A DNA stretch of 64,000 nt from Planctomycetota bacterium. Lineage in GTDB: Bacteria; Planctomycetota; UBA11346. This document shows, piece after piece, positions 38,812 through 59,161 of this stretch. The notes under the pieces are model-generated. The model was not told the origin of the DNA. It saw nothing but the letters and a program-made list of their open reading frames with translations, and searched no databases. Position 1 is the stretch's first letter. Each line of letters begins with the position of its first letter. The stretch is taken from the NCBI GenBank assembly GCA_038231435.1, contig JBBRLJ010000026.1, positions 4,991-68,990 on the forward strand, given 5' to 3'. The translations under genes and the position numbers were made by a program.

Positions 38812-41800
38812 TCACAGCGCGCCGTCGTCGTACCAGCGGTCGCTGAGCAACGCGCGCGGGTGCCCGCGATGCGCGACCACGGTTCCGCAATGGCTGGCAT
38901 AGGTGGAGACGAAATCGTCGAACACGCGGTCGAGCGCCAGACCGTGTCGGTTGGTATAGGTACGGAAGGCCAGGATCCCCTCCGGAGTCAGCGCCAGGAG
39001 CCGACGGCCGACGACGTTGCCGCCCGCCTCTCGCGCCCATGCCACCGTCTTGTCGACGTCGATCGCGTTCGATACCGCGCTCCAGGCGTTGATGCCGCGC
39101 AGCGACAGGCACGAGGCGAAGCCGTATTCGCCCATGAACAGGATCTCGAACGGATCGGATTCGACCGAGAGGGTCAGCGAGCCCTCGTAGTCCGAATCGG
39201 GCGTCTGCTCGGCGAGACGCACGCGCTCGAGGTTCATCTGCACCTCCTGCATCAGCTCCGGATCCGGCGGCTGCCTGGGTCGGCGCGCGCCTGCCGCATC
39301 CTCATCCGGGGTTTCCTCTCGCGCTGGAATCCCAGCCGCCAGCGCGGCGAAGGCCGCGGCCAGCTCCTCGTAGTCCTCAGCGGCGAGGCCTTCGGCTCCG
39401 GCACGCTCGAGCAGCGCGCGCGTCTGGGCGAGATCGGCCTTGATGCGCCGACGCTTCTCGGCCTGCGAATCCTTGGCGCGGTACTGCACCTGCTTGCTGA
39501 ACGGGGCGCGCCAGCGCTCGAGCGTGATCCCTGGCCGCGCCTCGCGCACGCGTGTCGCCCAGGCCAGCGCCGCGGGCTCGTCGCGCAGCCAGGCGTGCTC
39601 GCGGCCGGCGATGCGGTCCTCGATCAGGCGGCGCAGCCAGCGGGTGTTCTCGGGCAGGTTGCCGATCGCCTGGAACCACAGGAACGCGGGAAGGATCTTC
39701 GCCTCGACCCGCTCGATGTCGACGTCGCGCCCGAGCACGTCGCGGACGCGGTTGCGATAGAGCACCATGCGCGAGCGCTCGACCGCCGCGACCGCGATCG
39801 CCGTCGCCTCGGCGCGCAGCGAGTCGCGCAGCGTCTTGGCGAGGTCCTTCTTCTCGCGCTTGAGCAGCGCCCGCGCATCCGATGACAGCGCCGCGGCCGC
39901 GCCGTCCCCGGGATCGGCGAGCGCGAGCCGATACGCCGGATCCGACCAGCACGCGAGCTGCCGGCGCAGCGATGCCAGCCGCTCCTCGAGCCCACGGCGC
40001 TTGCCCGGGTCGGAGGCCGCGATGCGGGCGGCGATCACCGAGGCTTCGCCATCGGCAGCGGCGGCGCGCGCGGCGAAGGCCTCGAGCGGCCCCGGCTTGG
40101 TCGGCGCGTCGAAGCGCCGACGCAGCTCGGCGACCAGGCTGTGCAGTCCGGACAACTCGGCGTCGGCGGACAGGAACCCCACGCTGGGCGGAAAGGGGTG
40201 ATCCGGCGGATGACCGATGTCGAACTTGCGCAGGAACTCCTCGTGCTCGGCTCCGGTCGCGCACAGGTAGTGCAGTTGGAAGGCGCCTTCGAGGTAGCTC
40301 TCCGCCGAGGCCGTCGACACCGCGTCGTCGCCAGAACTGTCGATGATGAACATCAGGAAGTCCCAGATCGGCGAGAACTTCTCGGACTCCTCTCCGTCGG
40401 CGCCACGGCGATGCGGCGGGATCTTCCGCCACAGCACCACCGTGGCCGCGTAGCGCAGCGCCTCGAGCAGCACCTGGCGGCGCGCGCGCAGCTTCTGCCT
40501 GAACATGATCGCCATCAGCGCGCGAGCGCGGCGCGAGCCCACGCGCGGCGGTTCGCGCAGTGCCTGCTCGAGGCCCGAGCGGATGTGCGCCGCTTCCGAG
40601 ATCGCGATCAGCGACTCCATCTCCTCGGCGCGCACGAACGAGCGGTTCACCGGCTCAAGCGCCAGGCATTCGAAGAGCGCGAGCGTGCACTCGCGGGTGA
40701 ATTCCGGCCGCAGGCCGAGCAGTGTCTTGAAGAAGCCGAAGGCGAAGTTGGTGGCGTGGGGGATGTTGCGCAGCGCCGCGTCGACCTCGGAAACGCCGAT
40801 GAGCTCGGGGCGCTCCTTCGCGCAGCGGTGGAGGAAGTCGTAGGCGCCGTACGCGTCGGCCGCGAATCCGGCGCACAGCGCTTGGACGACATCCGGCCGC
40901 ACCAGGGCGATGGCATCGTGCTGGAACGAGTACTTCACGCTGTGGATGCCCGGTTTCGGAAAGCGCAGGACCAACGCCACATAGCGATCGAAGAGAGCGC
41001 GCGCACGCTGCGGATGCACGTCGATCAGGCGCCTGAGGATGGTCAGCAAGGTTCCCGGCTCCGTCACAGCCAGCGCGCCGAGCGCATCGAGCATCGCGTC
41101 GTCGAAGAGCTCGGGACGCGCGTGCGCCGCGCCGGCGAAGAACTTCCAGCCAGCCTCGGGCGCTGCCGGCAGGTGCGCTCGCACCGCCGCCACCAGCTCG
41201 GGCACCTGCAGCGCCCCCTGATCCGCCGCGACCGCCGCGATGGCCTCGAGCGAGGCGGCGGGATGCTCGGCGACGACACGCAGCACCGAGGCGATCAGCA
41301 CCGACGCTTCATCCGGGCGATGCCCGGCGAGGCTCAGCAGCGCCACACCGTGGCTCTTCGGCGCCGCCGTGCGATGCCGCTCCATCCAGGCGAGATGCTC
41401 GGAAAGGATCAATGCAGGCCGGTACATCGCCGCCGATTCGCAGATGCCCCAGGCCCCCTCCGGCGAGCTCGCGCCATGCTCGGCCACCGCGGCGAGCCAG
41501 CTCGCATCGAGCAGCGCGCAGTATTCGTGGAGGTTGTAGCCGGCGGTGTCCAGCGCGGGGGCGGTGAACCGGGGCAGCAGCGCGAGATAGCGCCCGACCA
41601 ACGCTTCGCGCCGCTCGGCATCCTTGGCGGCGACGTCCAGCAGCAGTGCGAAGAAGCTCGCCGGCGCCTCGGCCATGCGGCGCTGCAGGGCTTCCAGCGT
41701 ATCGTCGTCGACCAGGTACGGCCGGACACGGGCGTTGTCGCGGATCCGGTTCCAGCCCTCGCCGCCCGACCGGTCCAGGTACTCGTCGAGCGTCGACACG

Positions 41801-41865
41801 GCGGCGTCTCCGCGGCGCCCATGGCGATCGGACTGCAGGATCTGGAGCAGGAACGCGTCCGCCAT
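38812..41865 (-). CDS. large orphan alpha-helical protein (1017 aa), function unknown
   Basis: Uninterrupted 3054-nt frame, high GC3, Ala/Leu/Arg-rich helical composition. No P-loop, metal or catalytic motifs were seen. The plus-strand ORF 40141..42480 is its antisense shadow. Confidence 0.6.
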   Translation of the reverse strand: MADAFLLQILQSDRHGRRGDAAVSTLDEYLDRSGGEGWNRIRDNARVRPYLVDDDTLEALQRRMAEAPASFFALLLDVAAKDAERREALVGRYLALLPRFTAPALDTAGYNLHEYCALLDASWLAAVAEHGASSPEGAWGICESAAMYRPALILSEHLAWMERHRTAAPKSHGVALLSLAGHRPDEASVLIASVLRVVAEHPAASLEAIAAVAADQGALQVPELVAAVRAHLPAAPEAGWKFFAGAAHARPELFDDAMLDALGALAVTEPGTLLTILRRLIDVHPQRARALFDRYVALVLRFPKPGIHSVKYSFQHDAIALVRPDVVQALCAGFAADAYGAYDFLHRCAKERPELIGVSEVDAALRNIPHATNFAFGFFKTLLGLRPEFTRECTLALFECLALEPVNRSFVRAEEMESLIAISEAAHIRSGLEQALREPPRVGSRRARALMAIMFRQKLRARRQVLLEALRYAATVVLWRKIPPHRRGADGEESEKFSPIWDFLMFIIDSSGDDAVSTASAESYLEGAFQLHYLCATGAEHEEFLRKFDIGHPPDHPFPPSVGFLSADAELSGLHSLVAELRRRFDAPTKPGPLEAFAARAAAADGEASVIAARIAASDPGKRRGLEERLASLRRQLACWSDPAYRLALADPGDGAAAALSSDARALLKREKKDLAKTLRDSLRAEATAIAVAAVERSRMVLYRNRVRDVLGRDVDIERVEAKILPAFLWFQAIGNLPENTRWLRRLIEDRIAGREHAWLRDEPAALAWATRVREARPGITLERWRAPFSKQVQYRAKDSQAEKRRRIKADLAQTRALLERAGAEGLAAEDYEELAAAFAALAAGIPAREETPDEDAAGARRPRQPPDPELMQEVQMNLERVRLAEQTPDSDYEGSLTLSVESDPFEILFMGEYGFASCLSLRGINAWSAVSNAIDVDKTVAWAREAGGNVVGRRLLALTPEGILAFRTYTNRHGLALDRVFDDFVSTYASHCGTVVAHRGHPRALLSDRWYDDGAL

Positions 41866-42542: not shown

Positions 42543-43176
42543 TCACGGCGGAGCGGTGATCCATTCGCCGGTGCCGTCGATCGTGCTCAGGCTGCGGCGG
42601 GTGAATTCCTTGCCGTCGGCGGTGTATTCGAAGACCAGATCGTTGCGGTAGGCCGGATCGGGGGTGCCGGCGTCGCTGCGGATGCGCACGGTGGTGGTGT
42701 AGCTGCGCGTCGAGCCGGGCACCGTGAGATTGCGCACCTGCCACAGGAAGGGTCGGTGCCAGGCGTCCATCGGATGGGTCGCGACGTCGGGGAGCGCAGG
42801 CGAGAACGGCCCGGTGCCCAGGCCGCTGCTGTCGCGCAGCAGCTGCCTGCCCGAGAACTCGATGTAGGCCGGCTTGCCATTCGCGACCGGGATGCGGTAG
42901 AGGTGCAGCCACGGATCGCGCGCGAACTCGGTCTGGTCGGCGGCGTCGCCCAGGCTCGCGTAGTCGCCCAGGTACGCCGATACCGCGACGCCGAGATGCA
43001 GCATCAGATCCCAGGTGGCGACCTTGCGCTGCTGTTCGCGCAGCATCGCCAGGGCGGGGAGCAGCAGGCCGGCGAGCGCCGCGATGACGCTGATCACCAC
43101 CAGCAGCTCGAGGATCGAGAAGCCACGGCGGGAGCGATTCCGGCCATGATGTCCGGGAGCGGCACGCATGGTCATT
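42543..43176 (-). CDS. prepilin-type N-terminal cleavage/methylation domain protein (pseudopilin-like, 210 aa); last gene of the operon
   Basis: RRGFSILELLVVISVIAALAGLLLPAL (G|FSxxE). The ATG overlaps the upstream stop (ATGA). Confidence 0.7.
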
Positions 43177-44239
43177 TCACCTCGATGGGCGCGGACATCA
43201 GGCCGATGGCCTTGCGCGATGGGGAGACCCGCGAGATGCCCTTGCGCACCCCCGACCACGGCGCGGTCTTCACCGCGTTCTCGTCCCACAGGTATTTCGG
43301 TTCCGATGGCGGCATGCAGATCGCGGTGGTCTGTTCCCACATCGCTGTGAGCGTGGGGTACCACTGCCCGACCACGTTGCTCGCGTCCGGCGGCACCTTG
43401 CCGCCGGGGATCTTGACATCGTCGAGCGCCGGACCGGCCGAGGCGGCGACGATGTAGGTGGAGCGGTTGTACTGGTACATCTCGGCGGCCTGCTGCAGGT
43501 AGTGGTCGTTGGCGAAGCGCTTGCGGCCGTCGGAGAGCGTGTCGGCGCGGTTGCATTCGGGCGGCTGGAACAGCGCGTAGGACATCAGCAACGGATTGCC
43601 CCAGGCATCGTTCCACGGCCGCTTGGTCGAGCGGTCGGTATAATAGGTGGTGACGTCGGTGATGATGCCGGCGACCTTGAGGATCTCGGCCGACTTGCGC
43701 GGCCAGAACTCGGCCAGGTTGTGCTTCTCGGGCACTCGCCAGGCGGCGGCATCCGCGACGGTGACGCTCGGATCCGGCAACGTCAGCGGACCGGCGTACC
43801 ACGGCTCGTGGATCTCGTACAGGCGCGGCTGGCCCCAGGGATAGGCCATCACCAGCGGCGCGCCGGGGCTGGGCACGACGATCACCGGATTGCCGGAGCC
43901 GGTGGCGGTGGTCTTCGGATAGCAGTCGTGCCACAGCGTACCGACCGGATCGGGCATGACGGTGGGAGTATTGGCGACGATCCGGCGCACGAAGGTCTGG
44001 GTTCCCGCGAGGCCCGCATCGCGCTGCAGCGACGGCGTGGCGAGGTTTCCCGAGCCCTGCCCGAGTTGCGCGACCGCCTGCAGCGCGCCCTCGATGCGGC
44101 TGATGGTCAGGATCACCTGCGCACGTTCGCGCGCGGCGATCAAGGCGCCGAGGATGAGCCCGGCGAGGATCGCGATGATCGAGAGCACGATCACGATCTC
44201 GACCAATGTGAAGCCGCGCCTGGTCGCTGCGGATCTCAT
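43172..44239 (-). CDS. prepilin-type N-terminal domain protein (pseudopilin-like, 355 aa)
   Basis: MRSAATRRGFTLVEIVIVLSIIAILAGLIL. ATGA overlap with the upstream gene. Confidence 0.7.
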   Translation of the reverse strand: MRSAATRRGFTLVEIVIVLSIIAILAGLILGALIAARERAQVILTISRIEGALQAVAQLGQGSGNLATPSLQRDAGLAGTQTFVRRIVANTPTVMPDPVGTLWHDCYPKTTATGSGNPVIVVPSPGAPLVMAYPWGQPRLYEIHEPWYAGPLTLPDPSVTVADAAAWRVPEKHNLAEFWPRKSAEILKVAGIITDVTTYYTDRSTKRPWNDAWGNPLLMSYALFQPPECNRADTLSDGRKRFANDHYLQQAAEMYQYNRSTYIVAASAGPALDDVKIPGGKVPPDASNVVGQWYPTLTAMWEQTTAICMPPSEPKYLWDENAVKTAPWSGVRKGISRVSPSRKAIGLMSAPIEVK

Positions 44240-45219
44240 TTGAGGTCCCCGCCAGCGACCAGCTGGACGTTGTCGTGGCCCGCGTCGAGATCGTCACCGG
44301 AAAACGTGGTGGCGTCGGCGGCGGTCTCGATCGTGGCGTTGTGGCCGGGATTGACCCGGAAGAAGCCGTCGGGCCCCGAGCTGGTCAGGCAGATCACGCC
44401 GTTGCCGGTCAGGCTGTAGAGGATCTCGCGGCCCCAGGCGTCGTAGATGGCGATGCCGCGCAGGCGGTAGCCGCTGCGGCTGCTGGTGTCGGGGTTGGTG
44501 AATGTCGAGCCCTTCCATGCCGAGGAGGCGCCGGCGGCCTCGGGTGGGATCCACACCCGGCCGCCGGCTCCGGACACGCCCTTTGATTCGTCGGCCTCGC
44601 TCAGCGCACCGAGCTTCTGCAATTCGGTGAGGGCGTTGCCGCGATTGAGGGCGAACTGCACGGCCTGCGATGAATCACCAGGCGTGGCCAACGACGACAC
44701 CAGGCAGTCGAGGTTGGGATAGGCGACGATGTCGTCGGGATTGGCGATCACCGCCGTCGCGACCGACGGCAGCGGCAGGCGGCGGTACTTCTGCACCTCC
44801 TTGAGTGAGGCGCCGAGCACGCCGAGATCGCTGCGGCGCACGCCGAACAGCGCCGGCACGCGCGGATCCGCGAAACGATCGTCGGGCAGCATCAGGCGCG
44901 GCTGGAACGCGGCGGGCAGGTTCACGGCTGGCACGCCGGTGAGCGCCAGGCCGGCGGTGGCCAGGGCGGTGGCGCCGCGCGTGAAGATGAAGCGCGGCTC
45001 GGCGCTGCCGGCGAGCGGGTGCTCGGCCGGGGCTAGCGCGCCGCCGCGCTCCATGCGCTGCAGCTCGAGGCCCTGCAGCACGATGGTGAGGATCGCCGAG
45101 GTCTTCTGCGACTTGGCGTTCTTCATCATCGCGCTGGAGCCGATGATCATCATGCCCGTGAGCAGGCTGATGATGGTGATCACGACCAGGACCTCGATCA
45201 GCGTGAAGGCGTGGCGCAT
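44236..45219 (-). CDS. prepilin-type N-terminal domain protein (pseudopilin-like, 327 aa)
   Basis: MRHAFTLIEVLVVITIISLLTGMMI. The start shares 1 nt with the upstream TGA (TGATG). Confidence 0.7.
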   Translation of the reverse strand: MRHAFTLIEVLVVITIISLLTGMMIIGSSAMMKNAKSQKTSAILTIVLQGLELQRMERGGALAPAEHPLAGSAEPRFIFTRGATALATAGLALTGVPAVNLPAAFQPRLMLPDDRFADPRVPALFGVRRSDLGVLGASLKEVQKYRRLPLPSVATAVIANPDDIVAYPNLDCLVSSLATPGDSSQAVQFALNRGNALTELQKLGALSEADESKGVSGAGGRVWIPPEAAGASSAWKGSTFTNPDTSSRSGYRLRGIAIYDAWGREILYSLTGNGVICLTSSGPDGFFRVNPGHNATIETAADATTFSGDDLDAGHDNVQLVAGGDLK

Positions 45220-46448
45220 CACCAGTTCCCCGGGGATTTCAGCAGGCGTTGGATGTAGCGGATGGTGCCGCCGTAGTTGCGCGGTTCGGGAGTGGAGAGG
45301 CCATCGCAATAGATGTCCTGGCCCCAGGTGCGCGAATAGTTGATCGGCACGCCGGTGGTCCAGGTGTCGTTGGGCTGGCGGCCGATGCTCATCTTGCCCG
45401 GGTCGGGCGGGAATGGCCCGGGATTGTTCTCGTCGATCTTGGCGAAGTACGGGATGTAGTGGTCGAGCTCGCCGCCGCCCACCGCGGGGCTCCATTCGAC
45501 GCGGTACCAGCGCCGCAGCTCGCCGGCCTGGAGGATCTCGAAGAGGCCCTGGCTGTTGGCGAACAAGTCGGTGGCGGTCTCGCTCACTACCTCGGCCCAG
45601 TCTTTGAAGCCCATCGTGCCGCCAGCGCCGGTGGTGACGATGAAGGTGGCTCCGGCTGGCCCGGCGTTCGCGGGCCGATCGCTCTCGTCGCCGTATTCGC
45701 GGTAGAGGCGGAACCACGCCAGGCCGTTCGACCCGGGCACGTCGCCCGCGTCGCCCTTTGCCCACATCGCACGCTGGTCGGCGACCGTCGGGCTGCCGAT
45801 CACGTACGGAGGCGCGCTGTCATCGGTGACCGGCTTGGGATCGACGTTGACCAGGAACGGGATGCCGAAGGTCTCGGGCACCGCCGGGTCGGTGGGGATC
45901 GGATTCTGGCACATGCGTTGCTCGACCGCGAATGGCGGACGCTTCCAGCGGTACATCGGCGCGCGTATGTGCGTGCGCCGCGCCGGCCAAGTTCCCGCGG
46001 TCCACAGCTTGGCGCCGGTCTTGTCGCGCGGCCCGAGCAGGTACGGGGCGCCGCGGGTGCCAGGCGTGATGTCGGCGGCTTGGCCGATCTCGGCGGGATC
46101 GCGGGGATCGATCCAGCCCCAGGCTTCGCGCGGATCCAGGCAGGAGCCGTCGGCATTCATCTTGGCGTAGCCGAGGCGCGAGGCCTCGCACAGATAGGCC
46201 ATGGCGGCGTGGAGCATGACCCGGCACTGCACGGTGCGCAGCAGCACGTCGGCCTGCTGGGCCTCGCCGCGCATGCGCACCAGGAAGGCGACCGCGAGCA
46301 TGACGATCATGCACACCATGCCCGCGACCAGCAGCAGCAGCGCGCCGCGCCTGGTTGGCGATGGCGATGGCGATCCCATTGCCGATGGCCGACGTGGCAG
46401 GATCACGTGGACGGTCGCTGCGCGCTCGGGCATGGTCGTGTCATCCAT
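45219..46448 (-). CDS. membrane-anchored protein of the pseudopilin operon (no G|F cleavage motif; GspK-like position)
   Basis: N-terminal TM GALLLLVAGMVCMIVMLAVAFLV. Large periplasmic domain. The start ATG overlaps the upstream gene's end by 8 nt (ATGGATGA). Confidence 0.5.
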   Translation of the reverse strand: MDDTTMPERAATVHVILPRRPSAMGSPSPSPTRRGALLLLVAGMVCMIVMLAVAFLVRMRGEAQQADVLLRTVQCRVMLHAAMAYLCEASRLGYAKMNADGSCLDPREAWGWIDPRDPAEIGQAADITPGTRGAPYLLGPRDKTGAKLWTAGTWPARRTHIRAPMYRWKRPPFAVEQRMCQNPIPTDPAVPETFGIPFLVNVDPKPVTDDSAPPYVIGSPTVADQRAMWAKGDAGDVPGSNGLAWFRLYREYGDESDRPANAGPAGATFIVTTGAGGTMGFKDWAEVVSETATDLFANSQGLFEILQAGELRRWYRVEWSPAVGGGELDHYIPYFAKIDENNPGPFPPDPGKMSIGRQPNDTWTTGVPINYSRTWGQDIYCDGLSTPEPRNYGGTIRYIQRLLKSPGNW

Positions 46449-47883
46449 CGAGATTCGGCCGGCCGGGGGTCCACCAGAAATCGGTGGATGCGCTCGGACT
46501 CAGGGTGCGCTGGAGCCGGGCTCCGCGCAGGGTGGTGCCGAGCGCCGGAAAATTCACCTGGATCATGCGTCCGCTGATCGGATCCACCTGGCGCACGTAG
46601 ACCATGTTGTAGAAGCCGTCCCAGGTCGCGAGGCGCCGCACGTCCACCGTCACCGCCGGCCAGTGCGTGGGCTTCTGGCTGAGCAGCGGCTGTTCGAGCG
46701 ACAGGTCGCTCGACATGATGGTCAGGGTGTCGTTGTAGACGTCGTTGTTGCTGGTGCTCGGCCCGTTGCCAGAGGTGCCGACATCCATGGTGCCCATCTC
46801 GCGGTTCATGCGGCAGGCGGCGGTCTGCTCGGCGGGAGTCGCGCCGGCGGCGGGCCCGGTGACGCCGGTGTGCCGCGTGTACATGAAGATCGGCCGCGAC
46901 ACCGGGCGTTCGAGCTGGCAGGTGAGCAGCTGCTGCTCCCAGTTGGTGATGATGCGCATCTGGCCGTGGTCAGCGCGGCTCGGATCGCGGTAGGATGTCG
47001 CGCTGTCGCGGTACCACACCTTGCGCAGCTCGAGCAGCTTCACCGAATGCGCCTGCTTGTCGCTCCAGGTGTTGTACGGCCCGTCGTAGACCTGGTAGGC
47101 GTCGACGATCGCGTTCGCCGGCAGGTAGCTCAGCCAGCCGAAGAAGCCGAGGCCGTAGTCCAGCCCGCGCTGCTGCTGCGGCAGCCACTGGCGCGGGTAT
47201 GGATCCGCCGGATCGGGCGCCTTCTGCAGAAAAACCGTGGGCCGCGGATCCGCGGCGGGGCCGGTCGACTGGAAGATCGCGTAATTGCCGTAGGGCGAGA
47301 TGTCGGTGAGCGAGGAGATCCAGTTGTCGCGGTACTGCGCCCACGGATCCGCTCCGGACCAGTTGTCGCCGATGCAGAAGTTGGCCGGGTCGCCGCGGTA
47401 CCAGGTGCGCGGATCGTTCGCCAGCCACAGGAAGTCGTACTGGCCGGCGCCGTCGTTCTGCACCGCGGTCGCACCGCTCTTCGGCCACGAGGCGTTGAAT
47501 GGCGTGAATGGCTGGCCGAGCTGGTTCCAGTCGCTGCCGTCCGCCGCATAGCTGCCGTCCGGGGTCAGCACCTTGGTCGGGGTGGTGCGCAGCGGCGTGT
47601 GGCCGTTGCGGTCGAGGTCGGTCCAGAAATCGACCATGTCGAGGCCGCGCAGCATGCCGCCGACCAGCAGGCGGTTCTCGACGCTCAGGCGCTCGGTGAT
47701 GACCATCGACTGGGTGGCGACGCGGAAACCCGCGTAGACCATGCCGATGATCACCAGGCTGAGGGTGAGCGAGATCAGCATCTCGACGATGGTGAAGCCG
47801 CGTGCGCGCGGGCTCAGGCGGGGATCGGCATCCGCCAGCCGGGCGAGGGTCGGCGACAGTGACGATGGGCGCGAGCGGCTCAT
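46441..47883 (-). CDS. prepilin-type N-terminal domain protein (large pseudopilin-like, 480 aa)
   Basis: ...PRARGFTIVEMLISLTLSLVIIGMVYAGF. ATGA overlap with the upstream stop. The annotated 1008-aa ORF is this gene plus an out-of-context upstream frame. Confidence 0.7.
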   Translation of the reverse strand: MSRSRPSSLSPTLARLADADPRLSPRARGFTIVEMLISLTLSLVIIGMVYAGFRVATQSMVITERLSVENRLLVGGMLRGLDMVDFWTDLDRNGHTPLRTTPTKVLTPDGSYAADGSDWNQLGQPFTPFNASWPKSGATAVQNDGAGQYDFLWLANDPRTWYRGDPANFCIGDNWSGADPWAQYRDNWISSLTDISPYGNYAIFQSTGPAADPRPTVFLQKAPDPADPYPRQWLPQQQRGLDYGLGFFGWLSYLPANAIVDAYQVYDGPYNTWSDKQAHSVKLLELRKVWYRDSATSYRDPSRADHGQMRIITNWEQQLLTCQLERPVSRPIFMYTRHTGVTGPAAGATPAEQTAACRMNREMGTMDVGTSGNGPSTSNNDVYNDTLTIMSSDLSLEQPLLSQKPTHWPAVTVDVRRLATWDGFYNMVYVRQVDPISGRMIQVNFPALGTTLRGARLQRTLSPSASTDFWWTPGRPNLDG

Positions 47884-50321
47884 TTGTTCAGCGTCCCCTG
47901 GATGCGCGGGTCGTAGAAGTTCACCACGCACACCGTCTGCGCGCGCAGCCGCACCGATGGCGATAGCGTGCCGGCGTTGGCTTCGGCGACCGGACGGTCC
48001 TTGTTGCTGCCCGAGTTGGCGGGATAGCCCTTCGGATTGCCGGGGCCGCTGGGCAGCGTGCCGGATTCCACCGCGTCGCGGTTGCAGCCGAAACGGCCGA
48101 GGAACACATTCATGTTGAACTGGTCCTTGTCGCCGAACTTCGCCGGCAGCGCCGCCTGGAGGAACTGGGCGCGGATATCTGGCGCCTGGCCGAGCACCGC
48201 CTGGTTCTCGCCGTTCGGACCTGGAGGACCGCCGAAGTTGTTGATCTCGCCGACCGTGTAGAGCAGGTCGGTGATGCGCAGCCCGGTGCCCGGATCCACG
48301 CTGGGCTCGCGGAACAGCGAGGTGAGTTCGGGATTGCGCGTGGCGTTGGCCTGGGTCGGGCCGGCGCGCTGCACGTTGAGCTGGCGCTGCAGCGGATTGC
48401 GTTTGCACCACGACGAGCCGTACCAGTCGGTGCCAGGGAAGAGCGTGGTCTGATCGGCGGCGGGCCCGACGATCGGATAGCGCGAGGCATCGATCAGCGC
48501 GCTCGGGCAGGTCTCGAAATCCTGGTACGACTGCCAATCGACCGCCCACACCACCAGCTGACGGCAACGTTCGCTGGCGTCGAAGGGCGCGGTCAGGTTG
48601 AAATGCCGCTTCGGCCCGAGCGCCTTCTGCACCGTGCCCGCGGCCAGCGGCACCGGCGAGTCGTTGTCGTCGAGCACGCCATCGGCGTTGGTATCGAGGG
48701 TGTGCGGCGGCGCAGCGTACGACGCGGGCTCGGTCCAGGGGGACCCTTCCCACGGGCGGTTCGCGGTGCCATCCCACGCATGGGTTCCATCGAACTTGCC
48801 ATCGCGAAGATCCACCACCCCATCGCCGTCGGTGTCCTTGGCGCGACCAGGAAACGAATAGGGCAGGCCGGGGTTGACGATCGCTTCGGGGTACAGGGCC
48901 TTCCACTGCCGCTGAACGACCTGACCACCGTTGATATAGGGAAGGAAGGTGCCCGCGGCGTTCGCCGGATAGGTCGCGGTGATGGGGTCGCTCCAGCAGT
49001 CGAGCTCGATCAGCGGATGGTCCATCATCACCTGCCGGTTCAGCGAACGCGGCGCGCCCCAGTCGTACGGGCCATTCTTGTCGGCGAAGGCGATGCCCAG
49101 GCGCAGAGCGGCCTCGTGCCAGCCGCGCACGTTGTCGATGGTGACGCCGACCGTGGTGAAGTCGGTGGCGCCGGGCATCATCGTCACCGACGGCGAGCCG
49201 CCGAGCAGGGCGCCACCGCCGGGGAATCCGGCGGGGTAATAGCGCGGCAGCGAGGCGGCGGCGTGCGCGAGATAGCGCATGCCAAGCACCTTCTTCCAAT
49301 CGGCGGAACCTGAGTTGGCGAGCGCGAAGGCGGCGGCGGTCGGCTCGCTCAGGCCCTGCAACGTGGCCTGCGGGATGCCCGCGACCTCGATGCAGTACCA
49401 CATCGCGATCGCGACGTACGCCTCGTTGGCGCGCTTGGCGCGATCGAAGGCCGCCCCGGACACCCACACGAAGAAGCCGGAGAAATCAGGGGTCTGCGGC
49501 TTGTCGCCGGCATTGTGCAGGCTCAGGTCGTAGGGCTTGTAGCCGTAGTGCCAGGTGCCGGTGCCGTCGTTGTAGGTCGCGGTCGAGCACAGCACTTCCT
49601 GGATCTGCGGATCGCGGCACATCGCCTCGTAGTCCATCGCCTGCTGGAAGATGCCGCGATGATGATCGTCGCTGCCGGTCGGATCGACGAGCGCGCGCTC
49701 CTTCACGTGGCGCGGCGGCGACGGGTACCATTCCTGGTACGGCCCAACCTTGAGCGACGGGTGGTAGAGGATGGCGTTCTGCTGCGGCAGGCCGACCACG
49801 CCGATCAATAGCTTGCGGTAGAGCGGTTCCCAATGCGTCTGCGCCACCGGCTCGGGGCTGAACTGGGTGCCCACCGCCTCGTTGGGGACGCAGTAGTACA
49901 GGCGGCCGCCGGCATCGAGCAGACGCTGGATCTCGTCGTTGTCGCTGTCGAGCCGGCGCGCGATCGGCTCGGGCAAGGGCTTCACCGTGGAGCGCATGCT
50001 CTCGAGGTAGCTCTCGAGATCCGGGGCCATCGGCTTGTAGGTGACCGGGCTGTCCCAGGGATAGATCCCCTCCTTGTCCATGTCGTAGCCGTCGTTGACG
50101 ATGCCCGGCCCGGCGCCGTTGGACATCAGGTCGATGAGCTCCATCGCCTTCGCGGCGGCGAGCGCCTTGAAGCGCACCGAGGTCTGGGTGCGGATGCCTG
50201 CGGGCAGCAGCATGAAGGTCGCGACCACGGCGGTGGCGACCATCGCCATGCTGAAGGCGACCTCGATCAGGGTCAGGCCGGCGCGCCGTTCCTGGCAATT
50301 GCGATGGCGATCGGAGCGCAT
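47880..50321 (-). CDS. prepilin-type N-terminal domain protein (giant pseudopilin-like, 813 aa)
   Basis: MRSDRHRNCQERRAGLTLIEVAFSMAMVATAVVATFMLL. Start at 50321 overlapping the upstream stop. Long Gly/Pro/Asp/Trp-rich extracellular region. Confidence 0.7.
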   Translation of the reverse strand: MRSDRHRNCQERRAGLTLIEVAFSMAMVATAVVATFMLLPAGIRTQTSVRFKALAAAKAMELIDLMSNGAGPGIVNDGYDMDKEGIYPWDSPVTYKPMAPDLESYLESMRSTVKPLPEPIARRLDSDNDEIQRLLDAGGRLYYCVPNEAVGTQFSPEPVAQTHWEPLYRKLLIGVVGLPQQNAILYHPSLKVGPYQEWYPSPPRHVKERALVDPTGSDDHHRGIFQQAMDYEAMCRDPQIQEVLCSTATYNDGTGTWHYGYKPYDLSLHNAGDKPQTPDFSGFFVWVSGAAFDRAKRANEAYVAIAMWYCIEVAGIPQATLQGLSEPTAAAFALANSGSADWKKVLGMRYLAHAAASLPRYYPAGFPGGGALLGGSPSVTMMPGATDFTTVGVTIDNVRGWHEAALRLGIAFADKNGPYDWGAPRSLNRQVMMDHPLIELDCWSDPITATYPANAAGTFLPYINGGQVVQRQWKALYPEAIVNPGLPYSFPGRAKDTDGDGVVDLRDGKFDGTHAWDGTANRPWEGSPWTEPASYAAPPHTLDTNADGVLDDNDSPVPLAAGTVQKALGPKRHFNLTAPFDASERCRQLVVWAVDWQSYQDFETCPSALIDASRYPIVGPAADQTTLFPGTDWYGSSWCKRNPLQRQLNVQRAGPTQANATRNPELTSLFREPSVDPGTGLRITDLLYTVGEINNFGGPPGPNGENQAVLGQAPDIRAQFLQAALPAKFGDKDQFNMNVFLGRFGCNRDAVESGTLPSGPGNPKGYPANSGSNKDRPVAEANAGTLSPSVRLRAQTVCVVNFYDPRIQGTLNK

Positions 50322-50893
50322 CAGAATTCCTGGCTCGCGACGATGCCGATCTCGTAGATCGAGATCGCGCGCTTCAGCTGGTTGTCGAGCGTACGGATGC
50401 TCAGGTGATCGGGATTGCCCAGCGGCACCGAGCCGATCGCGATCGGCTGCAGGGTCACCGGATCGTGCGGCTCGCCGGTGGCGTAGTCGTAGAACCACGC
50501 CCAGTCCCCAGCCAGAGGCGCGTTGCCGCGGTAGATGAGCAGGTTCTCATTGAGGGTGCGGCGGCGCACCTCGGTTGCGGACGATGGCGTGTTAGGATCG
50601 CCGAGCACTACCGAGACGTAGGCGCGGCCGCTCACATTGGTGCCGATGCGTACGCCGTACTCGTAGCCGTTCGCCGGCGCCTGGTTCGTCCTGGCCATGC
50701 GCGACGCGTCATTGGAGGCCTCGACCAGATCACCGACCGCCTGATTCAGGCGTGCCTTGCGCAGGTTGCCGACCAGTCCACTCACCGAGAGCCCGGACAG
50801 CGTGATCATCACGCCGAGCACCACCATCAGCTCGACCGCGGTGATGCCGACGCGTGTCCGGCAGGTGGACGGCATGCGAGGGAGAGCGCTCAT
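50321..50893 (-). CDS. prepilin-type N-terminal domain protein (pseudopilin-like, 190 aa)
   Basis: ORF trimmed to MSALPRMPSTCRTRVGITAVELMVVLGVMITLSGL. The Arg/His-rich N-terminal extension in the track overlaps the upstream gene. ATGA overlap. Confidence 0.7.
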   Translation of the reverse strand: MSALPRMPSTCRTRVGITAVELMVVLGVMITLSGLSVSGLVGNLRKARLNQAVGDLVEASNDASRMARTNQAPANGYEYGVRIGTNVSGRAYVSVVLGDPNTPSSATEVRRRTLNENLLIYRGNAPLAGDWAWFYDYATGEPHDPVTLQPIAIGSVPLGNPDHLSIRTLDNQLKRAISIYEIGIVASQEF

Positions 50894-51546
50894 TGGACGT
50901 TCTCCCAGGTGCGGATGTCGTCCTTCGCCGGATCGTCGAGCTTCTCGTCGGCGCCATCCTTGCCCGCCGACCACACGCCGATGCCGCCAGCCGCCTTGAG
51001 CGGATCGGCGAATGCGGTGGCGTTGGTCACCGCCACGTGCGCGGTGGGCGGCGAGCCGTAACGGACATCCTCCGAGAAGACGATGCGCAGCGGGCGGCGC
51101 CAGGCATCGACGATGCGTCCGGTGGTCTCGTCGAAGTTGCGCTTCGGGAGGGACATGCCGGTGGCTGCGTAGAGGCCCTTGTAGCCCGAGGCCACCACCG
51201 CGGCGGTGTATTGCTCGGCGGCGCTGAGCACAGTGTTCTCGAGCGCGGGGCTGCCGTCGACCAGGCCGTCGTGGTTGACGTCCCAGATGCGGTAGATGCG
51301 CTTGCCAGTGGACTCGGTGACGGTCAGGGATTGCTGGCTCGCCGAGACGATGGTGGTGACCACTGCGTGCACCAGAGTCGCGGTGCCCGAGACCCGCGAG
51401 CGCTCGCGCATCGAGGACATCACCGGAAACATCATCGCCATCATCAAGGCGATGATCGAGATCACGACGATCATCTCCACCATGGTGAAGCCAGACGTGG
51501 TGATCCCCGAGATGGCGGGGGCTGGGCTGCGCATACCTAAAAGCAT
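50890..51546 (-). CDS. prepilin-type N-terminal domain protein (pseudopilin-like, about 218 aa); first gene of the operon
   Basis: ...SGITTSGFTMVEMIVVISIIALMMAMMFPV. Start at Met92 (51546) or Met96 (51534) of the annotated ORF. The upstream extension is Ala/Pro/Ser-rich. Confidence 0.65.
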   Translation of the reverse strand: MLLGMRSPAPAISGITTSGFTMVEMIVVISIIALMMAMMFPVMSSMRERSRVSGTATLVHAVVTTIVSASQQSLTVTESTGKRIYRIWDVNHDGLVDGSPALENTVLSAAEQYTAAVVASGYKGLYAATGMSLPKRNFDETTGRIVDAWRRPLRIVFSEDVRYGSPPTAHVAVTNATAFADPLKAAGGIGVWSAGKDGADEKLDDPAKDDIRTWENVQ

Positions 51547-51884
51547 GCATGAAAGACGGGGTTTGGAATGGATACCGGACACCGCTCCGGACATGCGGTT
51601 CACATGCCGGGCGGCGTTCGGCCGGGCGGCCAGGCGGGCCAAGGCGTTACATTCCCCGAAGGCGATCGACGCTGGACCCGGAAGGGTTTGAACAGACCCA
51701 TCGAGGACCGTTGGCAGCTGTGAAACGGCCGCGGATCCGTCACCTGGATGTGCCGACGGAACCACGCTCGGCCGTGCCGCCGATCTGCTATTAGGTAAAT
51801 TATTGCGGTTTTGACCCACGGCCCGTCAGGGCTCGGGCGACGGTGGAGCTTGCTGCACGCTGCTATGGTCTACGGTCTACGGCG

Positions 51885-52913
51885 ATGGGAAAGCGCCCGA
51901 TTTCGCAAGACGACCTGGCCAGACGCCTGGGCCTCACCCAGATGACGGTGTCGCTCGCGCTCAGCGGCAAGGGCCGGGTCGCGGTCGAGACCCGCGAGCG
52001 CGTCGCCGCGCTCGCCACCAAGCTCGGCTACCGGCCGAATTCCATGGCGCGGCGCGTGCACGAAGGGCGCTACCGTGGACTGGCCCTGCTCGGCAGCGCG
52101 TCGCGTCCCGCCTTCAATGTCTGGGATCAGGACTTCCACATGAGCGTCGGCGCCGCGCTCGCTGAACGCTCGTGGCACCTCACCGAAAGCTGGCTGCCGG
52201 GCGAGGGGCTCGCCGATCCCGCCACCGTCACCGGGCTGCTCGATCGCCTGCTCGCCGACGCCGTGCTGGTGCACGACGTGGGACCGCAGCCGCCGGTGGT
52301 CGAGGCGCTGCTTGAACGCCACCGCGTGCCCGCGGTGTGGGTCAACACCGGCCGCGCTTCCGACGCGGTTGATTTCGCCGACGCCCAGGCCGGTGCCGAC
52401 GCGATCGCTCACCTGCTCGCCCAGGGATATCGCCAGCCGGCGATGGTTCTCGACAGTCCTCCCGACAACGCCGGCGCGCACGTCAGCCAGGGCCTGCGCG
52501 CCGAAGGCTGGCGCCGCGGCTGCGTGGAAGCAGGCATCGCGCCGCGCTTCGTGCATCCCGAGCCGGTGGAGGCCTGGCGCATGGAGCTCACCAGCGCGCT
52601 GCGCCAGGCGCTCGCGGGGAACGACCGGCCCGATGCCATCGCGTGCTACAGCTACAAGGTGCTGTTCGTGGCGCGGCTGGTGTCGGCCGATCTCGGCCTG
52701 CGCATCGGGCGCGATCTCGGACTGATGTGCTTCGCCAAGGCAGCCGACGCGGAGATCGACCGCGCTTACACCGTGTGCGCGCAGGATTACCAGGCGATGG
52801 CGCGCGAGGCGGTGGCGATGGCGTGGCGACGGCTCGATACCGGAAAGGTCCAGCCGAAGGTGCTGATCCCCATGCCCTTGATGAAGCACGGCACCACCGA
52901 TCGATCCAGCTGA
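51885..52913 (+). CDS. LacI-family transcriptional regulator
   Basis: N-terminal HTH ISQDDLARRLGLTQMTVSLALSGKGRVAVETRERVAALATKLGYRPNSMARR, then a periplasmic-binding-protein-like sugar-binding core. Confidence 0.8.
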   Translation: MGKRPISQDDLARRLGLTQMTVSLALSGKGRVAVETRERVAALATKLGYRPNSMARRVHEGRYRGLALLGSASRPAFNVWDQDFHMSVGAALAERSWHLTESWLPGEGLADPATVTGLLDRLLADAVLVHDVGPQPPVVEALLERHRVPAVWVNTGRASDAVDFADAQAGADAIAHLLAQGYRQPAMVLDSPPDNAGAHVSQGLRAEGWRRGCVEAGIAPRFVHPEPVEAWRMELTSALRQALAGNDRPDAIACYSYKVLFVARLVSADLGLRIGRDLGLMCFAKAADAEIDRAYTVCAQDYQAMAREAVAMAWRRLDTGKVQPKVLIPMPLMKHGTTDRSS

Positions 52914-55454: not shown

Positions 55455-56030
55455 TCAGGGCGGTGATTCTTGGGACAGCCACCACAGCCCTGCGTAGACC
55501 TTGTGGTCGATCAGCATCCCCTCGCGCGAGCGCTCCTCGAGCCACGCCACGATGCCGGCGAGCGGAACCCGATGCACGGTGATGTCCTCGCCGGCGACCC
55601 CACCTCCGGCACCCATCTGCACGAGACCGCGCGCGCGGATCAGCGTGGTCACCTCGCTGGTCAGCCCGGCCGATGACGGACCGCGCGCGAGCTGGCGCAG
55701 GTCCTTGGAGGTCCAGCCGGTTTCCTCCTCGAGCTCGCGGGCGGCGGCGACGAGCAGGTCCTCGTTGGCCTGCTCGTCGCCGACCAGGCCTGCGGGCAGC
55801 TCGATGACGCGGGCGTCCACGGGGATGCGCCGCTGCTCGACCAGCAGCAGCTCGCGCGCCGGTGTCACCGCGATCACGCCGACCACCGCGGTGGCGTTCT
55901 TGCGCCGGACGAACTCCCAGTGGTCGCGGCGCACCACCTCGATGAACTTCCCCGCATGCAGCACGGTAGGCGGATCTGTCTGGGGATCTGTCTGGGGATC
56001 TGTCTTGCGATCGGTCCTACGAACGGTCAT
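55455..56030 (-). CDS. NUDIX hydrolase (ADP-ribose pyrophosphatase-like); last gene of the nrtR operon
   Basis: Nudix box ELPAGLVGDEQANEDLLVAAARELEEETG. The N-terminus carries (TDPQ)n encoded by a 12-bp tandem repeat. Confidence 0.7.
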   Translation of the reverse strand: MTVRRTDRKTDPQTDPQTDPPTVLHAGKFIEVVRRDHWEFVRRKNATAVVGVIAVTPARELLLVEQRRIPVDARVIELPAGLVGDEQANEDLLVAAARELEEETGWTSKDLRQLARGPSSAGLTSEVTTLIRARGLVQMGAGGGVAGEDITVHRVPLAGIVAWLEERSREGMLIDHKVYAGLWWLSQESPP

Positions 56031-57052
56031 GGCCTCTCTCCTTCCGACAACTCGTCGGCAATGCGTCGTTGGGCGGCGACCGGCTCCGCGCCCGCGAGCG
56101 GGCCGAGCAGGGGATCGATGGCCGCCACTGCCGCCTGGTAACGTTGCTCGCGATCCCCGCGGATCACCACGTACCGCCTGCCGTGCGCCTCAAGCGCCCC
56201 GCGGCAGCGCTCCATGAACTCCTGGCGGCGGTGCGGCATGTCGCGCTGCCGGTCATCGACCCACGGCACGTCGATATCGCAGAGCAGGTAGAGATCGTGC
56301 GTCCGCTTGCGCGCGAGATCCACGAGCCAGGGCGGCGTACGCCCGAAGTAGACGTCGCTCCAGATGGTGGTGGTCAGGGTGTCGGTGTCGCAGATCAGCA
56401 CCCGGTTCGCCTGACGCGCGAGCGCGTCTTCGCTCGCTGCCTGGCCGAGCCCGATGAGCTCGATGTCGCGCTCGACGCAGGCGCCGCCGTTCGGATCGAG
56501 GTGCCCACGCGCCCATTCCGGCACCCACACCGTGCGGAAGTGCGCGGCGAGTCGCGCGGCCAGGGTGGTCTTGCCGGTGGATTCGGGGCCGAAGCACACC
56601 ACGCGCCGGCAGTACCACGGCCGCACCACGTCGGGGAGATGCGCCCAGTGGGCGTAGGGATCCGCGCGCATCGCCGTGCCCGACACCGGCACGCCGTGGC
56701 GCTGCGCATCGGCGACCACGTGCACGGCGCCGACGCGGCGCGCGAGCTCGGGGCCGTAGGCCTCGCTGGTGAACACCGCGTCGATCCCACCTGGCACCAC
56801 GCGGCGGATGACCTCGAGCCAGATCGCCCAGAACTCCGGATGCGCCTCGGGTGCATCGGGCAGGTCGTCGGGGATGTGCACCACGTCGCACCCCGGCAGC
56901 ATCGCGCGCATCCAGGCGTGGCGGCAGTGGCCGGGCAGCTCCTGGCCGGGCTTGCTGCACACCAGCACGCTCACGCGCCGGCAGCAGCCCGCGGCGAACT
57001 CGGCGAGATAGCGGTGCCCCTGGGTCGGGGGCATGAACTTGCCGAGGATCAT
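56027..57052 (-). CDS. nadR: NadR-like bifunctional NMN adenylyltransferase / ribosylnicotinamide kinase (no HTH domain)
   Basis: ORF trimmed to MILGKFMPPTQGHRYL (nucleotidyltransferase (H/T)xGH motif). P-loop kinase VVCFGPESTGKTTLAARLA. Confidence 0.75.
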   Translation of the reverse strand: MILGKFMPPTQGHRYLAEFAAGCCRRVSVLVCSKPGQELPGHCRHAWMRAMLPGCDVVHIPDDLPDAPEAHPEFWAIWLEVIRRVVPGGIDAVFTSEAYGPELARRVGAVHVVADAQRHGVPVSGTAMRADPYAHWAHLPDVVRPWYCRRVVCFGPESTGKTTLAARLAAHFRTVWVPEWARGHLDPNGGACVERDIELIGLGQAASEDALARQANRVLICDTDTLTTTIWSDVYFGRTPPWLVDLARKRTHDLYLLCDIDVPWVDDRQRDMPHRRQEFMERCRGALEAHGRRYVVIRGDREQRYQAAVAAIDPLLGPLAGAEPVAAQRRIADELSEGERP

Positions 57053-57078
57053 GCCACGGCCGAAGAGCGGCGGGCTGG

Positions 57079-57765
57079 TCACTGGCCCCCCGCTACCGGG
57101 GAGCCGACGGATACTCGGGCAGATGCTGGAGCTGATGCGCGGCTCTGCCACGAGTCCCGCCAGGTCTTCCGCCATGCGACCAACCCATAGACGCACAACG
57201 CCAGGAACACCGCGTACAGGCCAGCGGTCAGGTAGAAGCCCTTGCCCGCGAACAGCGGGATCGAGATGCAGTCGACCTGGATCCACACGTACCAGTTCTC
57301 GAGCTTCTTCTTCGAGATCATCCACTGCGCGATCAGGCTGAGCACCGTGGGGATGGCGTCGCACCAGGGCGTGGTGGAATCGGTCCAGCGCGCGAGGCCG
57401 AATGCGATCGGCACCACCGCCACTGCGGCGATCGCCGCCAGCACCGACCACGTCCGCATCGAGGTGCGGCTGATGACCACGCCCCTGTGCTGGTCACCGC
57501 CGCGCACCCATTGCCACCAGCCATAGATCTGCAGCACCACGTACACCACCTGCAGCGCGGTCTCGGCGTAGAGCTTGCCGTGCCAGAACAGCGCGATGTA
57601 CAGCGCGACGTTGACCAGCCCCGTGGGCCAGCTCCACACGTGCTCCTTCACGTAGAACCACACCGAGAGCAGGCCGAACACCGTCGCCGCCACCTCGAGC
57701 GGGCTCATCGGCACCGTCGCGGCGATGTTGGTCAGCATCCAAGCCGAGAATTCCGCGCCGGTCAT
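57079..57765 (-). CDS. pnuC: nicotinamide riboside transporter PnuC
   Basis: QIYGWWQWVRG and KLENWYVWIQVDCISIPLF align with the E. coli PnuC motifs (GWYAW; ENWLLWVIINVISVVIF). Seven TM helices. Confidence 0.85.
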   Translation of the reverse strand: MTGAEFSAWMLTNIAATVPMSPLEVAATVFGLLSVWFYVKEHVWSWPTGLVNVALYIALFWHGKLYAETALQVVYVVLQIYGWWQWVRGGDQHRGVVISRTSMRTWSVLAAIAAVAVVPIAFGLARWTDSTTPWCDAIPTVLSLIAQWMISKKKLENWYVWIQVDCISIPLFAGKGFYLTAGLYAVFLALCVYGLVAWRKTWRDSWQSRASAPASARVSVGSPVAGGQ

Positions 57766-58397: not shown

Positions 58398-58430
58398 GGG
58401 ACACCTCTGGTCAAATCGGTGATGGCCGGA

Positions 58431-59160: not shown

Positions 59161-59161
59161 G

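What the first reader, a model, noticed from the sequence alone, without database searches (positions are those of the whole stretch)
42543..51546. Eight-gene translationally coupled operon of outsized prepilin-type pseudopilin-like proteins
Seven consecutive minus-strand genes carry a type-IV prepilin leader and cleavage/methylation motif (G|F[TS]xxE, with A|FTLIE in one and Glu+5 in all). An eighth has only an N-terminal TM anchor. Every junction overlaps (ATGA or TGATG, and one ATGGATGA 8-nt overlap), implying tight stoichiometric co-translation. Sizes of 190-218, 327, 355, 480 and 813 aa far exceed canonical T2SS GspG-K or T4P minor pilins, and the large ones have long Gly/Pro/Trp/Asp-rich ectodomains. 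No secretin, ATPase, platform protein or prepilin peptidase lies in the window, so this looks like a detachable minor-pilin or tip-complex module, or an adhesive or enzyme-presenting fibre. It sits divergent to a LacI regulator and next to a GH29 fucosidase and AraC, which suggests carbohydrate-responsive expression.
Basis: partly seen in the sequence, partly recalled or inferred. Interest (0 to 1): 0.7.

Follow-up and report, generated by a model that had tools for sequence, protein, structure and literature searches.

The report
Giant minor-pilin tip-complex operon, Planctomycetota
This is a real eight-gene operon of oversized pilin-like proteins whose three central genes resemble the GspI-GspJ-GspK "tip complex" that starts and caps type IV filaments; that three-gene core recurs in many diverged copies per genome in a few uncultured Planctomycetota, which suggests interchangeable filament tips.

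Summary
Eight consecutive minus-strand genes (42543-51546) have overlapping or abutting junctions, and seven carry a prepilin-type leader with Glu+5.

The two genes upstream carry weak, N-terminal-only signatures: the 813-aa protein of the PilV/GspI class, the 480-aa protein of the PpdB/GspJ class. The core therefore follows the canonical I-J-K order.

This triad occurs in all 77 related loci from 20 Planctomycetota MAGs:
- There are at least 15 loci in one MAG.
- Within-genome paralogs are about 45% identical.
- It is not next to an ATPase, platform or peptidase gene in any fetched flank (up to 10 kb each side).
- It often lies next to LacI/GntR-type, AraC or ECF-sigma/FecR regulator genes.

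The 813-aa ectodomain matches no solved structure, so no lectin, hydrolase or vWA domain was found.

Best reading: a tip/priming module that works with machinery encoded elsewhere, one of many interchangeable and separately regulated tips. I rate it a new variant of a known kind. The ligand and the filament type are unresolved.

The parts
50890..51546 (-). Gene 1 of the operon, 218-aa prepilin-type protein (leader ...TTSG|FTMVE). A G/H-like small pilin; its class is not resolved.
   Evidence: N_methyl 22.0 bits (cut-off 21.2) and TIGR02532 22.7 bits. There are weak N-terminal hits to Verru_Chthon cassette protein D, ComGC and GspG. Orthologues sit in the same position in L002, L006, L007 and L029.
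50321..50893 (-). Gene 2, 190-aa prepilin-type protein (leader ...TRVG|ITAVE). It occupies the GspH/FimU position directly upstream of the I-like gene.
   Evidence: There is no Pfam hit, only weak N-terminal NCBIfam hits. Orthologues keep G|[FMIY][TS]A[IV]E. The H-like assignment rests on position only.
47880..50321 (-). Gene 3, 813-aa giant pilin of the PilV/GspI class (leader ...RRAG|LTLIE), with an ectodomain of about 750 aa and unknown fold. First member of the conserved triad.
46441..47883 (-). Gene 4, 480-aa pilin of the PpdB/GspJ class (leader ...PRARG|FTIVE). Second member of the triad.
   Evidence: N_methyl 26 bits. 31/43 family members hit PRK10557 (the E. coli PpdB model, itself GspJ-related), and 9 hit GspJ models. 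Glu+5 is present in 43/43. It always lies between the I-like and K-like genes. Its structure was not modelled.
45219..46448 (-). Gene 5, 409-aa GspK/PilX-class minor pseudopilin (leader ...TRRG|ALLLLV, no Glu+5). Third member of the triad and the presumed cap of the tip.
44236..45219 (-). Gene 6, 327-aa accessory prepilin-type protein (MRHA|FTLIE).
   Evidence: N_methyl 24.7 bits. The best weak hit is to the GspG N-terminus. Orthologues sit in the same position in L002, L007, L013 and L029.
43172..44239 (-). Gene 7, 355-aa accessory prepilin-type protein (...TRRG|FTLVE).
   Evidence: N_methyl 27.3 bits. Orthologues lie downstream of the K-like gene in 11 loci.
42543..43175 (-). Gene 8, 210-aa (or 208-aa) accessory prepilin-type protein (...SRRG|FSILE). 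Last gene of the operon.
   Evidence: N_methyl 24.6 bits. Orthologues are in L002, L013 and L029. The next gene downstream is a convergent DUF188 gene.
51547..51842 (.). 296-bp divergent intergenic region between the operon and the LacI-family gene. Presumed promoter and operator region.
   Evidence: Inferred from position only. No sigma-70-like promoter and no convincing palindromic operator were found.
51843..52913 (+). Divergent LacI-family regulator, the probable local regulator of the operon.
   Evidence: It has a LacI HTH plus Peripla_BP_3. LacI homologues are also divergent and directly upstream of the extended cassettes in L071, L053 and L067. Peripla_BP_3 regulators are enriched among cassette-flanking genes, p=0.009.

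Best explanation
The operon encodes a complete set of minor (pseudo)pilins, that is, a priming and tip complex for a type IV filament (a type IV pilus or a T2SS-like pseudopilus). The ATPase, platform, secretin, prepilin peptidase and probably the major subunit are encoded elsewhere.

Inferred mechanism, by analogy with GspHIJK and FimU-PilVWX:
1. A prepilin peptidase cleaves the leaders.
2. The I-like (813 aa), J-like (480 aa) and K-like (409 aa) proteins associate through their N-terminal helices in the inner membrane. The K-like subunit, which lacks Glu5, sits on top as the cap.
3. The small upstream pilins (190 and 218 aa) link this trimer to the filament body. The three downstream pilins (327, 355 and 210 aa) add further tip or sub-tip subunits.
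4. Polymerisation pushes the complex outward. The filament then ends in roughly 1,500 residues of lineage-specific ectodomain, which is presumably the ligand-binding part.

Related genomes carry many diverged I-J-K triads, and these triads often sit beside their own sugar-type or ECF-type regulators. I therefore read the triads as interchangeable, condition-specific tips for a shared machine. This operon is one of the extended versions, controlled by the divergent LacI-family regulator.

Shown here: the gene order, the leaders, the K-like fold, the paralogy, the absence of nearby machinery and the regulator enrichment. Inferred: complex formation, tip location, the ligand and the regulation.
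For: - Seven class-III signal peptides with Glu5, plus one GspK-type leader without it.
- Class-specific weak N-terminal hits: PilV/GspI for the 813-aa family (33/40 and 12/40 members) and PpdB/GspJ for the 480-aa family (31/43, plus 9 to GspJ models).
- The gene order small-small-I-J-K matches gspG-H-I-J-K. E. coli gspH/I/J/K also overlap by 4, 8 and 8 nt.
- The I-J-K triad is the invariant unit in all 77 loci from 20 MAGs, and in about 60 of them it is the only pilin content.
- No GspE/F/L/M/O homologue occurs in 1.3 Mb of flanks.
- There are at least 15 loci in one MAG, 10 in another and 7 loci (8 triads) in a third. Within-genome K-like paralogs have a median identity of 44-48%.
- Regulators are enriched next to cassettes: 21/104 vs 7/125, p=0.0007.
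- Precedent for several minor-pilin sets serving one machine: M. xanthus (PMC7541494).
- Precedent for bulky modules displayed on pilins: PMC8179133.
Against: - No sequence model of GspI, GspJ or GspK reaches its cut-off. Profile comparisons with E. coli GspI/J/K align only the N-terminal helix.
- The J-like protein was not modelled.
- No heteromer prediction could be run.
- The presence of a prepilin peptidase, ATPase, platform, secretin and major pilin in this genome is unverified.
- An I-like subunit of 813 aa may be hard to pass through a secretin, so the topology at the envelope is unknown.
- The regulator enrichment rests on a heuristic ORF call and small counts.
Confidence: 0.6

Rival explanations
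1. It is simply this lineage's ordinary T2SS pseudopilus operon (GspG-H-I-J-K plus extras). It would serve one secretion system, and its only role would be to push exoproteins through a secretin.
For: The order and class resemblance match gspG-K. One source names a homologue "type II secretion system protein" or "PulG". One related locus has a secretin-like C-terminal fragment about 7 kb away (L067).
Against: There are many paralogous triads per genome, at least 15 in one MAG. GspC/D/E/F/L/M/O are never adjacent in about 80 loci. The I-like and J-like subunits are 4 to 6 times the canonical size. There are three extra pilins. The family is rare, with 48 clusters and 347 representatives, rather than lineage-wide housekeeping.
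Confidence: 0.1
2. The proteins use a prepilin-type signal only as a membrane anchor or export tag. They would act as periplasmic or cell-surface proteins that are never polymerised into a filament, as is suspected for many planctomycetal proteins with N-terminal methylation motifs.
For: The ectodomains are very large and have no recognisable pilin head in the 813-aa model. No machinery is nearby. Planctomycetota are known (from my own knowledge) to encode very many N_methyl-motif proteins.
Against: The strict co-occurrence and order of an I-class, a J-class and a Glu5-less K-class subunit, together with the GspK-like fold, are hallmarks of a complex that nucleates a filament. They are not expected of independent anchored proteins.
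Confidence: 0.15
3. It is a planctomycetal counterpart of the multi-copy "Verru_Chthon cassette" of Verrucomicrobia. On this view it is a pseudopilin-like cassette of unknown role that need not be a pilus tip.
For: 17/40 members of the 813-aa family weakly hit Verru_Chthon cassette protein B. The 218-aa protein's best NCBIfam hit is cassette protein D. Multi-copy occurrence per genome in a PVC-superphylum lineage is similar, though that point rests on my recollection of the TIGRFAM descriptions and was not checked.
Against: All scores are far below the family cut-offs (12-29 bits vs 51-70). Nothing hits cassette protein A, and only faint hits to protein C come from two accessory pilins. The cassette's function is itself unknown, so this is a label rather than a mechanism, and it is compatible with the main explanation.
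Confidence: 0.1

Closest known systems
GspH-GspI-GspJ-GspK minor pseudopilins of the T2SS (ETEC GspIJK crystal structure, PDB 3CI0)
   Different: The I-like protein is 813 aa against about 125, and the J-like protein is 480 aa against about 195. No curated model reaches its cut-off. The cluster is not embedded in a gspC-O operon. It is present in many paralogous copies per genome, and three additional pilins follow K.
FimU-PilV-PilW-PilX(-PilY1-PilE) minor-pilin/tip-adhesin sets of type IVa pili, including the three alternative sets of Myxococcus xanthus (PMC7541494)
   Same: The cluster is separate from the machine genes. The complex primes assembly and sits at the tip. Several alternative sets occur per genome. 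The 813-aa family's commonest weak hit is PilV.
   Different: There is no PilY1-like beta-propeller protein. Here the bulky part is built into the I-like and J-like pilins themselves. Copy number is far higher (at least 15 vs 3).
Modular type IV pilins (S. sanguinis PilB/PilC, CofB, ComZ; PMC8179133)
   Same: A pilin N-terminus carries a large extra module, presumably displayed at the filament tip.
   Different: The extra parts here match no known domain or solved fold. Two giant pilins occur together with a K-like cap as a fixed triad.
Verru_Chthon cassette proteins A-D (TIGR02596, TIGR02598, TIGR02599, TIGR02600)
   Same: Both are multi-copy pseudopilin-like cassettes in a PVC-superphylum lineage. 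There are weak N-terminal hits to proteins B and D.
   Different: Scores are below cut-off for every member. There is no counterpart of protein A. The phylum and protein sizes differ.

Membership tests
Type IV pilin-like proteins (class III signal peptide; PF07963 / TIGR02532) | A short basic leader ending in G/A, then about 20 hydrophobic residues with Glu at +5 | tested here: met
   Seven of the eight proteins have it. Five pass the curated cut-offs. The 813-aa and 190-aa proteins qualify by motif and through their orthologues.
Type IV pilin-like proteins (class III signal peptide; PF07963 / TIGR02532) | A long N-terminal alpha-1 helix packed on a beta-sheet head | tested here: inconclusive
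Type IV pilin-like proteins (class III signal peptide; PF07963 / TIGR02532) | Cleavage and N-methylation by a prepilin peptidase, followed by incorporation into a filament | not testable with these tools
   There is no peptidase in the window or in the related flanks. The whole genome is not available.
GspK / PilX-class minor pseudopilin | A prepilin-like leader without Glu5 | tested here: met
   The consensus is R-x-G|T-[IV]-L-I-[ILV]-V-A, and +5 is I/L/V/M in 58/58. E. coli GspK has QRG|VALLIV.
GspK / PilX-class minor pseudopilin | GspK-like three-dimensional fold | tested here: met
GspK / PilX-class minor pseudopilin | Sequence match to curated GspK models | tested here: not met
   There is no relevant Pfam or NCBIfam hit at E<=1. 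hhalign against E. coli GspK aligns 22 N-terminal columns at probability 5.9%. The profile search against PDB sequences found nothing.
GspI / PilV-class minor pilin | Score above the cut-off of TIGR01707 / TIGR02523; a small protein of about 120-185 aa | tested here: not met
   The scores are 13.5 and 13.8 bits against cut-offs of 44 and 52, and the protein is 813 aa. Only class-typical weak N-terminal hits are seen, in 33/40 and 12/40 family members.
GspJ / PilW-class minor pilin | Score above the cut-off of TIGR01711; GspJ fold | tested here: not met
   For the sequence criterion, the window protein has no GspJ hit. Family members give weak hits to PpdB (31/43) and to GspJ models (9/43). hhalign aligns 36 N-terminal columns.
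Canonical T2SS gene cluster (gspC-O) | Pseudopilin genes contiguous with secretin, ATPase, platform, GspL/M and the peptidase | tested here: not met
   None is in the 64-kb window. None is in about 80 related loci, except one secretin-like fragment in L067.
Type IVa pilus minor-pilin/PilY1 set | A PilY1/PilC beta-propeller adhesin encoded with the minor pilins | tested here: not met
   No protein in the operon has a PilY1-type domain.
Verru_Chthon cassette (TIGR02596/8/9/600) | Scores above the curated cut-offs for proteins A-D | tested here: not met
   Protein D scores 28.7 against 70, protein B 12.2 against 51.4, protein C about 10 against 256, and protein A gives no hit.

The most novel reading that the evidence does not exclude
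The many diverged I-J-K triads form a substrate-specific, individually regulated repertoire of filament tips. They would work much as polysaccharide-utilisation loci do, but built on type IV filaments. Each tip would capture a particular glycan or macromolecule for the fibre-mediated uptake seen in Planctomycetes. The molecular players of that uptake are still described as unknown (PMC5394234; PMC12673574).
Probability: 0.15. Interest if true: 0.85.

Novelty: new variant of a known kind. Interest (0 to 1): 0.55.

Why it matters
Minor-pilin tip complexes decide when a type IV filament starts and what it binds. A clade that keeps a dozen or more diverged, giant I-J-K-like triads, each often with its own sugar-type or ECF-type regulator, would show that tip exchange is used on a large scale to diversify one machine.

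The proteins are unannotated, with no Pfam domain, and they match no solved fold outside the K-like core. They therefore define new families.

They also give concrete candidate genes for the pili-like fibres that bind dextran in Planctomycetes. The components of those fibres are not known.

Tried and rejected
- **Profile searches against PDB sequences.** Profiles of the three core families found only chance hits or N-terminal-helix hits.
- **hhalign against E. coli GspI/J/K.** Only the N-terminal helix aligned.
- **A second cassette in the window.** ORFs 2481-7588 have triad-like sizes but are unrelated.
- **LacI operator or sigma-70 promoter in the divergent intergenic region.** Nothing convincing was found.
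- **GH29 fucosidase conservation near related cassettes.** None was found.
- **Literature search for "Verru_Chthon cassette".** It returned no papers.
- **Mobile-element or phage origin.** There were no tRNA genes and no composition break at the operon, so I did not pursue this.


Full report
**1. Observation.**
The region 42543-51546 holds eight consecutive minus-strand genes of 218, 190, 813, 480, 409, 327, 355 and 210 aa, in transcription order. With the longest plausible ATG starts, every junction overlaps, by 4, 1, 4, 8, 1, 4 and 4 nt. The public gene call on an identical 13.7-kb contig starts two of the genes a few codons later. That turns the 8-nt overlap into a 7-nt gap and one 4-nt overlap into a 2-nt gap. 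"Every junction overlaps" is therefore likely but not certain.

Seven proteins have a basic leader ending in G or A, followed by a hydrophobic stretch with Glu at +5. Pfam N_methyl and TIGR02532 pass their cut-offs for five of them. The 813-aa and 190-aa proteins are recognised by motif and through their orthologues.

No assembly machinery is in the 64-kb window. This rests on Pfam scans of the main ORFs, tblastn with E. coli GspC-O and a Walker-A scan.

**2. The eighth protein is GspK-like.**
I aligned 58 relatives of the 409-aa protein. All keep an R-x-G motif (G in 57/58, R at -2 in 55/58). A hydrophobic segment follows in which position +5 is I, L, V or M in every sequence and never Glu. 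This is the GspK/PilX pattern. E. coli GspK reads QRG|VALLIV.

**3. The two large proteins.**
The first piece of evidence is weak class-specific sequence hits:
- Members of the 813-aa family weakly hit PilV (33/40, best E 8.9e-8), Verru_Chthon cassette protein B (17/40) and GspI (12/40). They essentially never hit the G, H or J models.
- Members of the 480-aa family hit PRK10557 (31/43) and GspJ models (9/43).
- PRK10557 is the E. coli PpdB model, and PpdB's own secondary hit is GspJ.
- All these hits are N-terminal and below the curated cut-offs. They indicate class, not membership.

**4. Gene order.**
The order here is small pilin, small pilin, I-like, J-like, K-like. This is the order of gspG-H-I-J-K. 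In E. coli K-12, gspH/I/J/K also overlap by 4, 8 and 8 nt. Tight coupling is therefore normal for this kind of gene set rather than special. The three pilins downstream of K have no canonical counterpart.

**5. Distribution.**
- **Rarity.** The 813-aa family has only 48 clusters among 5.8 billion proteins. All come from Planctomycetota MAGs or metagenomes and none has a Pfam domain. The K-like family has 347 representatives among 1.84 billion.
- **Copy number.** A scan of one genome per GTDB species found 125 relatives, and the best 80 fall in just 20 Planctomycetota MAGs. There are 15 loci in SMAG_U12054, 10 in MGR_bin416 and 7 loci (8 triads) in MGR_bin356. These counts are lower bounds.
- **Invariant unit.** Mapping all eight proteins onto the loci shows that the invariant unit is the I-J-K triad, always in that order. 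In about 60 loci it is the only pilin content, and it is sometimes duplicated in tandem (L010, L015, L036, L068).
- **Extended form.** The full eight-gene form occurs only in the closest relatives (L002, L007 without the last gene, L013, L029). Partial forms occur in L006, L031, L053, L060, L067, L071 and L077.
- **Age of the paralogs.** Within-genome K-like paralogs are 36-72% identical, with a median of 44-48%. This is old diversification, not recent duplication.

**6. Context.**
In 1.3 Mb of flanks plus the window there is no GspE/PilB-type Walker A (the only matches are PriA). There is also no GspE, F, L, M, O or C homologue by tblastn. One secretin-like fragment lies at the edge of L067.

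I compared the nearest non-pilin genes flanking each cassette with control genes more than 4 kb away in the same loci:

| Pfam family | Flanking genes (n=104) | Control genes (n=125) |
|---|---|---|
| Peripla_BP_3 (LacI/GntR-type) | 8 | <=1 |
| AraC HTH | 8 | 4 |
| GntR HTH | 5 | <=1 |
| FecR | 5 | 2 |
| ECF sigma | 4 | 2 |
| PA14 | 4 | <=1 |

Fisher's exact test gives p=0.009 for Peripla_BP_3 and p=0.0007 for the pooled regulators (21/104 vs 7/125). The ORF calling was heuristic, so this is indicative only.

Divergent LacI genes sit directly upstream of the extended cassettes in L071, L053 and L067, as in the window. AraC genes sit directly downstream of the triads in L016, L020 and L026. The fucosidase is not conserved near any related cassette.

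**7. Interpretation.**
The best-supported reading is a tip/priming complex of a type IV filament that works with machinery encoded elsewhere. It has giant I-like and J-like subunits and a K-like cap. It exists as a large repertoire of diverged, separately regulated versions.

Whether the filament is a retractile pilus or a T2SS-like pseudopilus cannot be decided here. The ligand is unknown. Sugar-type regulators and PA14 neighbours hint at glycans, and planctomycetal pili-like fibres are known to bind dextran (PMC5394234). The 2025 review still calls the uptake players unknown (PMC12673574).

Precedents are the three minor-pilin/PilY1 sets of M. xanthus (PMC7541494) and modular pilins (PMC8179133).

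The first rival is that this is an ordinary single T2SS pseudopilus operon. The second is that the proteins are prepilin-anchored and never polymerise. The third is that the locus is a Verru_Chthon-like cassette of unknown role. The first is disfavoured by copy number and by the lack of linkage to machinery. The second is disfavoured by the strict I-J-K logic. The third is a label compatible with the main reading.

**8. Novelty and score.**
The kind of system, minor-pilin tip complexes, is known. The variant is not described in anything I could find. Its distinguishing features are subunits several times the normal size with no known fold, a free-standing triad, a dozen or more diverged copies per genome, and local regulators. 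I rate it a new variant of a known kind, with interest 0.55.

Main weaknesses: there is no heteromer model, no model of the J-like protein, no whole-genome view of the machinery, and all relatives are uncultured.

Noticed in passing
window 55455-62693 (minus strand): A compact NAD salvage and regulation cluster. It holds a NUDIX protein, an AAA_28 (NadR-like) protein, a PnuC-type NMN transporter, an isochorismatase (PncA-like), an NrtR-type NUDIX/winged-helix regulator, a glutamine-dependent NAD synthetase and a nicotinate phosphoribosyltransferase.
   Followed up: no
window 31196-34897 (-): A 1233-aa fusion protein combining CheB methylesterase, CheR methyltransferase, PAS domains and a histidine kinase. 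A response regulator lies next to it at 35146-36045. Several hybrid kinases and receiver proteins lie at 10195-18339 and 27005-28074.
   Followed up: no
window 38812-41865 (-): A 1017-aa ORF with strong coding-type GC3 bias and no Pfam match. It lies just beyond the convergent DUF188 gene that ends the operon's neighbourhood.
   Followed up: no
window 2481-8526 (+): Three consecutive ORFs of 594, 478 and 326 aa have no Pfam match and are followed by a TonB C-terminal-domain protein. Their sizes resemble a triad, but they are unrelated to the cassette by tblastn.
   Followed up: partly
window 22586-24130 (-) and 28242-30173 (+): A GH28-like beta-helix glycosidase is present. So is a 643-aa protein with a PATR autotransporter-type repeat and a purple-acid-phosphatase N-terminal/fn3 domain.
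   Followed up: no
L010, L015, L036, L068; L047 14115-15100: Tandem duplications of the whole I-J-K triad occur in four related loci. An inverted partial copy of the K-like gene lies directly after the triad in L047. This suggests ongoing duplication and rearrangement.
   Followed up: no
L067 21491-21664 (-): This is the only machinery-like hit in 1.3 Mb of flanks. It is a secretin (GspD) C-terminal-like segment at the very edge of the locus, about 7 kb downstream of an extended cassette.
   Followed up: no
window 47880-50321 (protein residues 120-131, 419-429, 584-611): There are nearly invariant motifs in the 813-aa family: IARRLDSDNDEI (an acidic, possibly Ca-binding-like motif), YDWGAPRPLNR and ERCRQLVFWAVDWQSYEDFETAPS. 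Between them lie poorly conserved, indel-rich segments at about 280-300, 500-560 and 620-660.
   Followed up: partly
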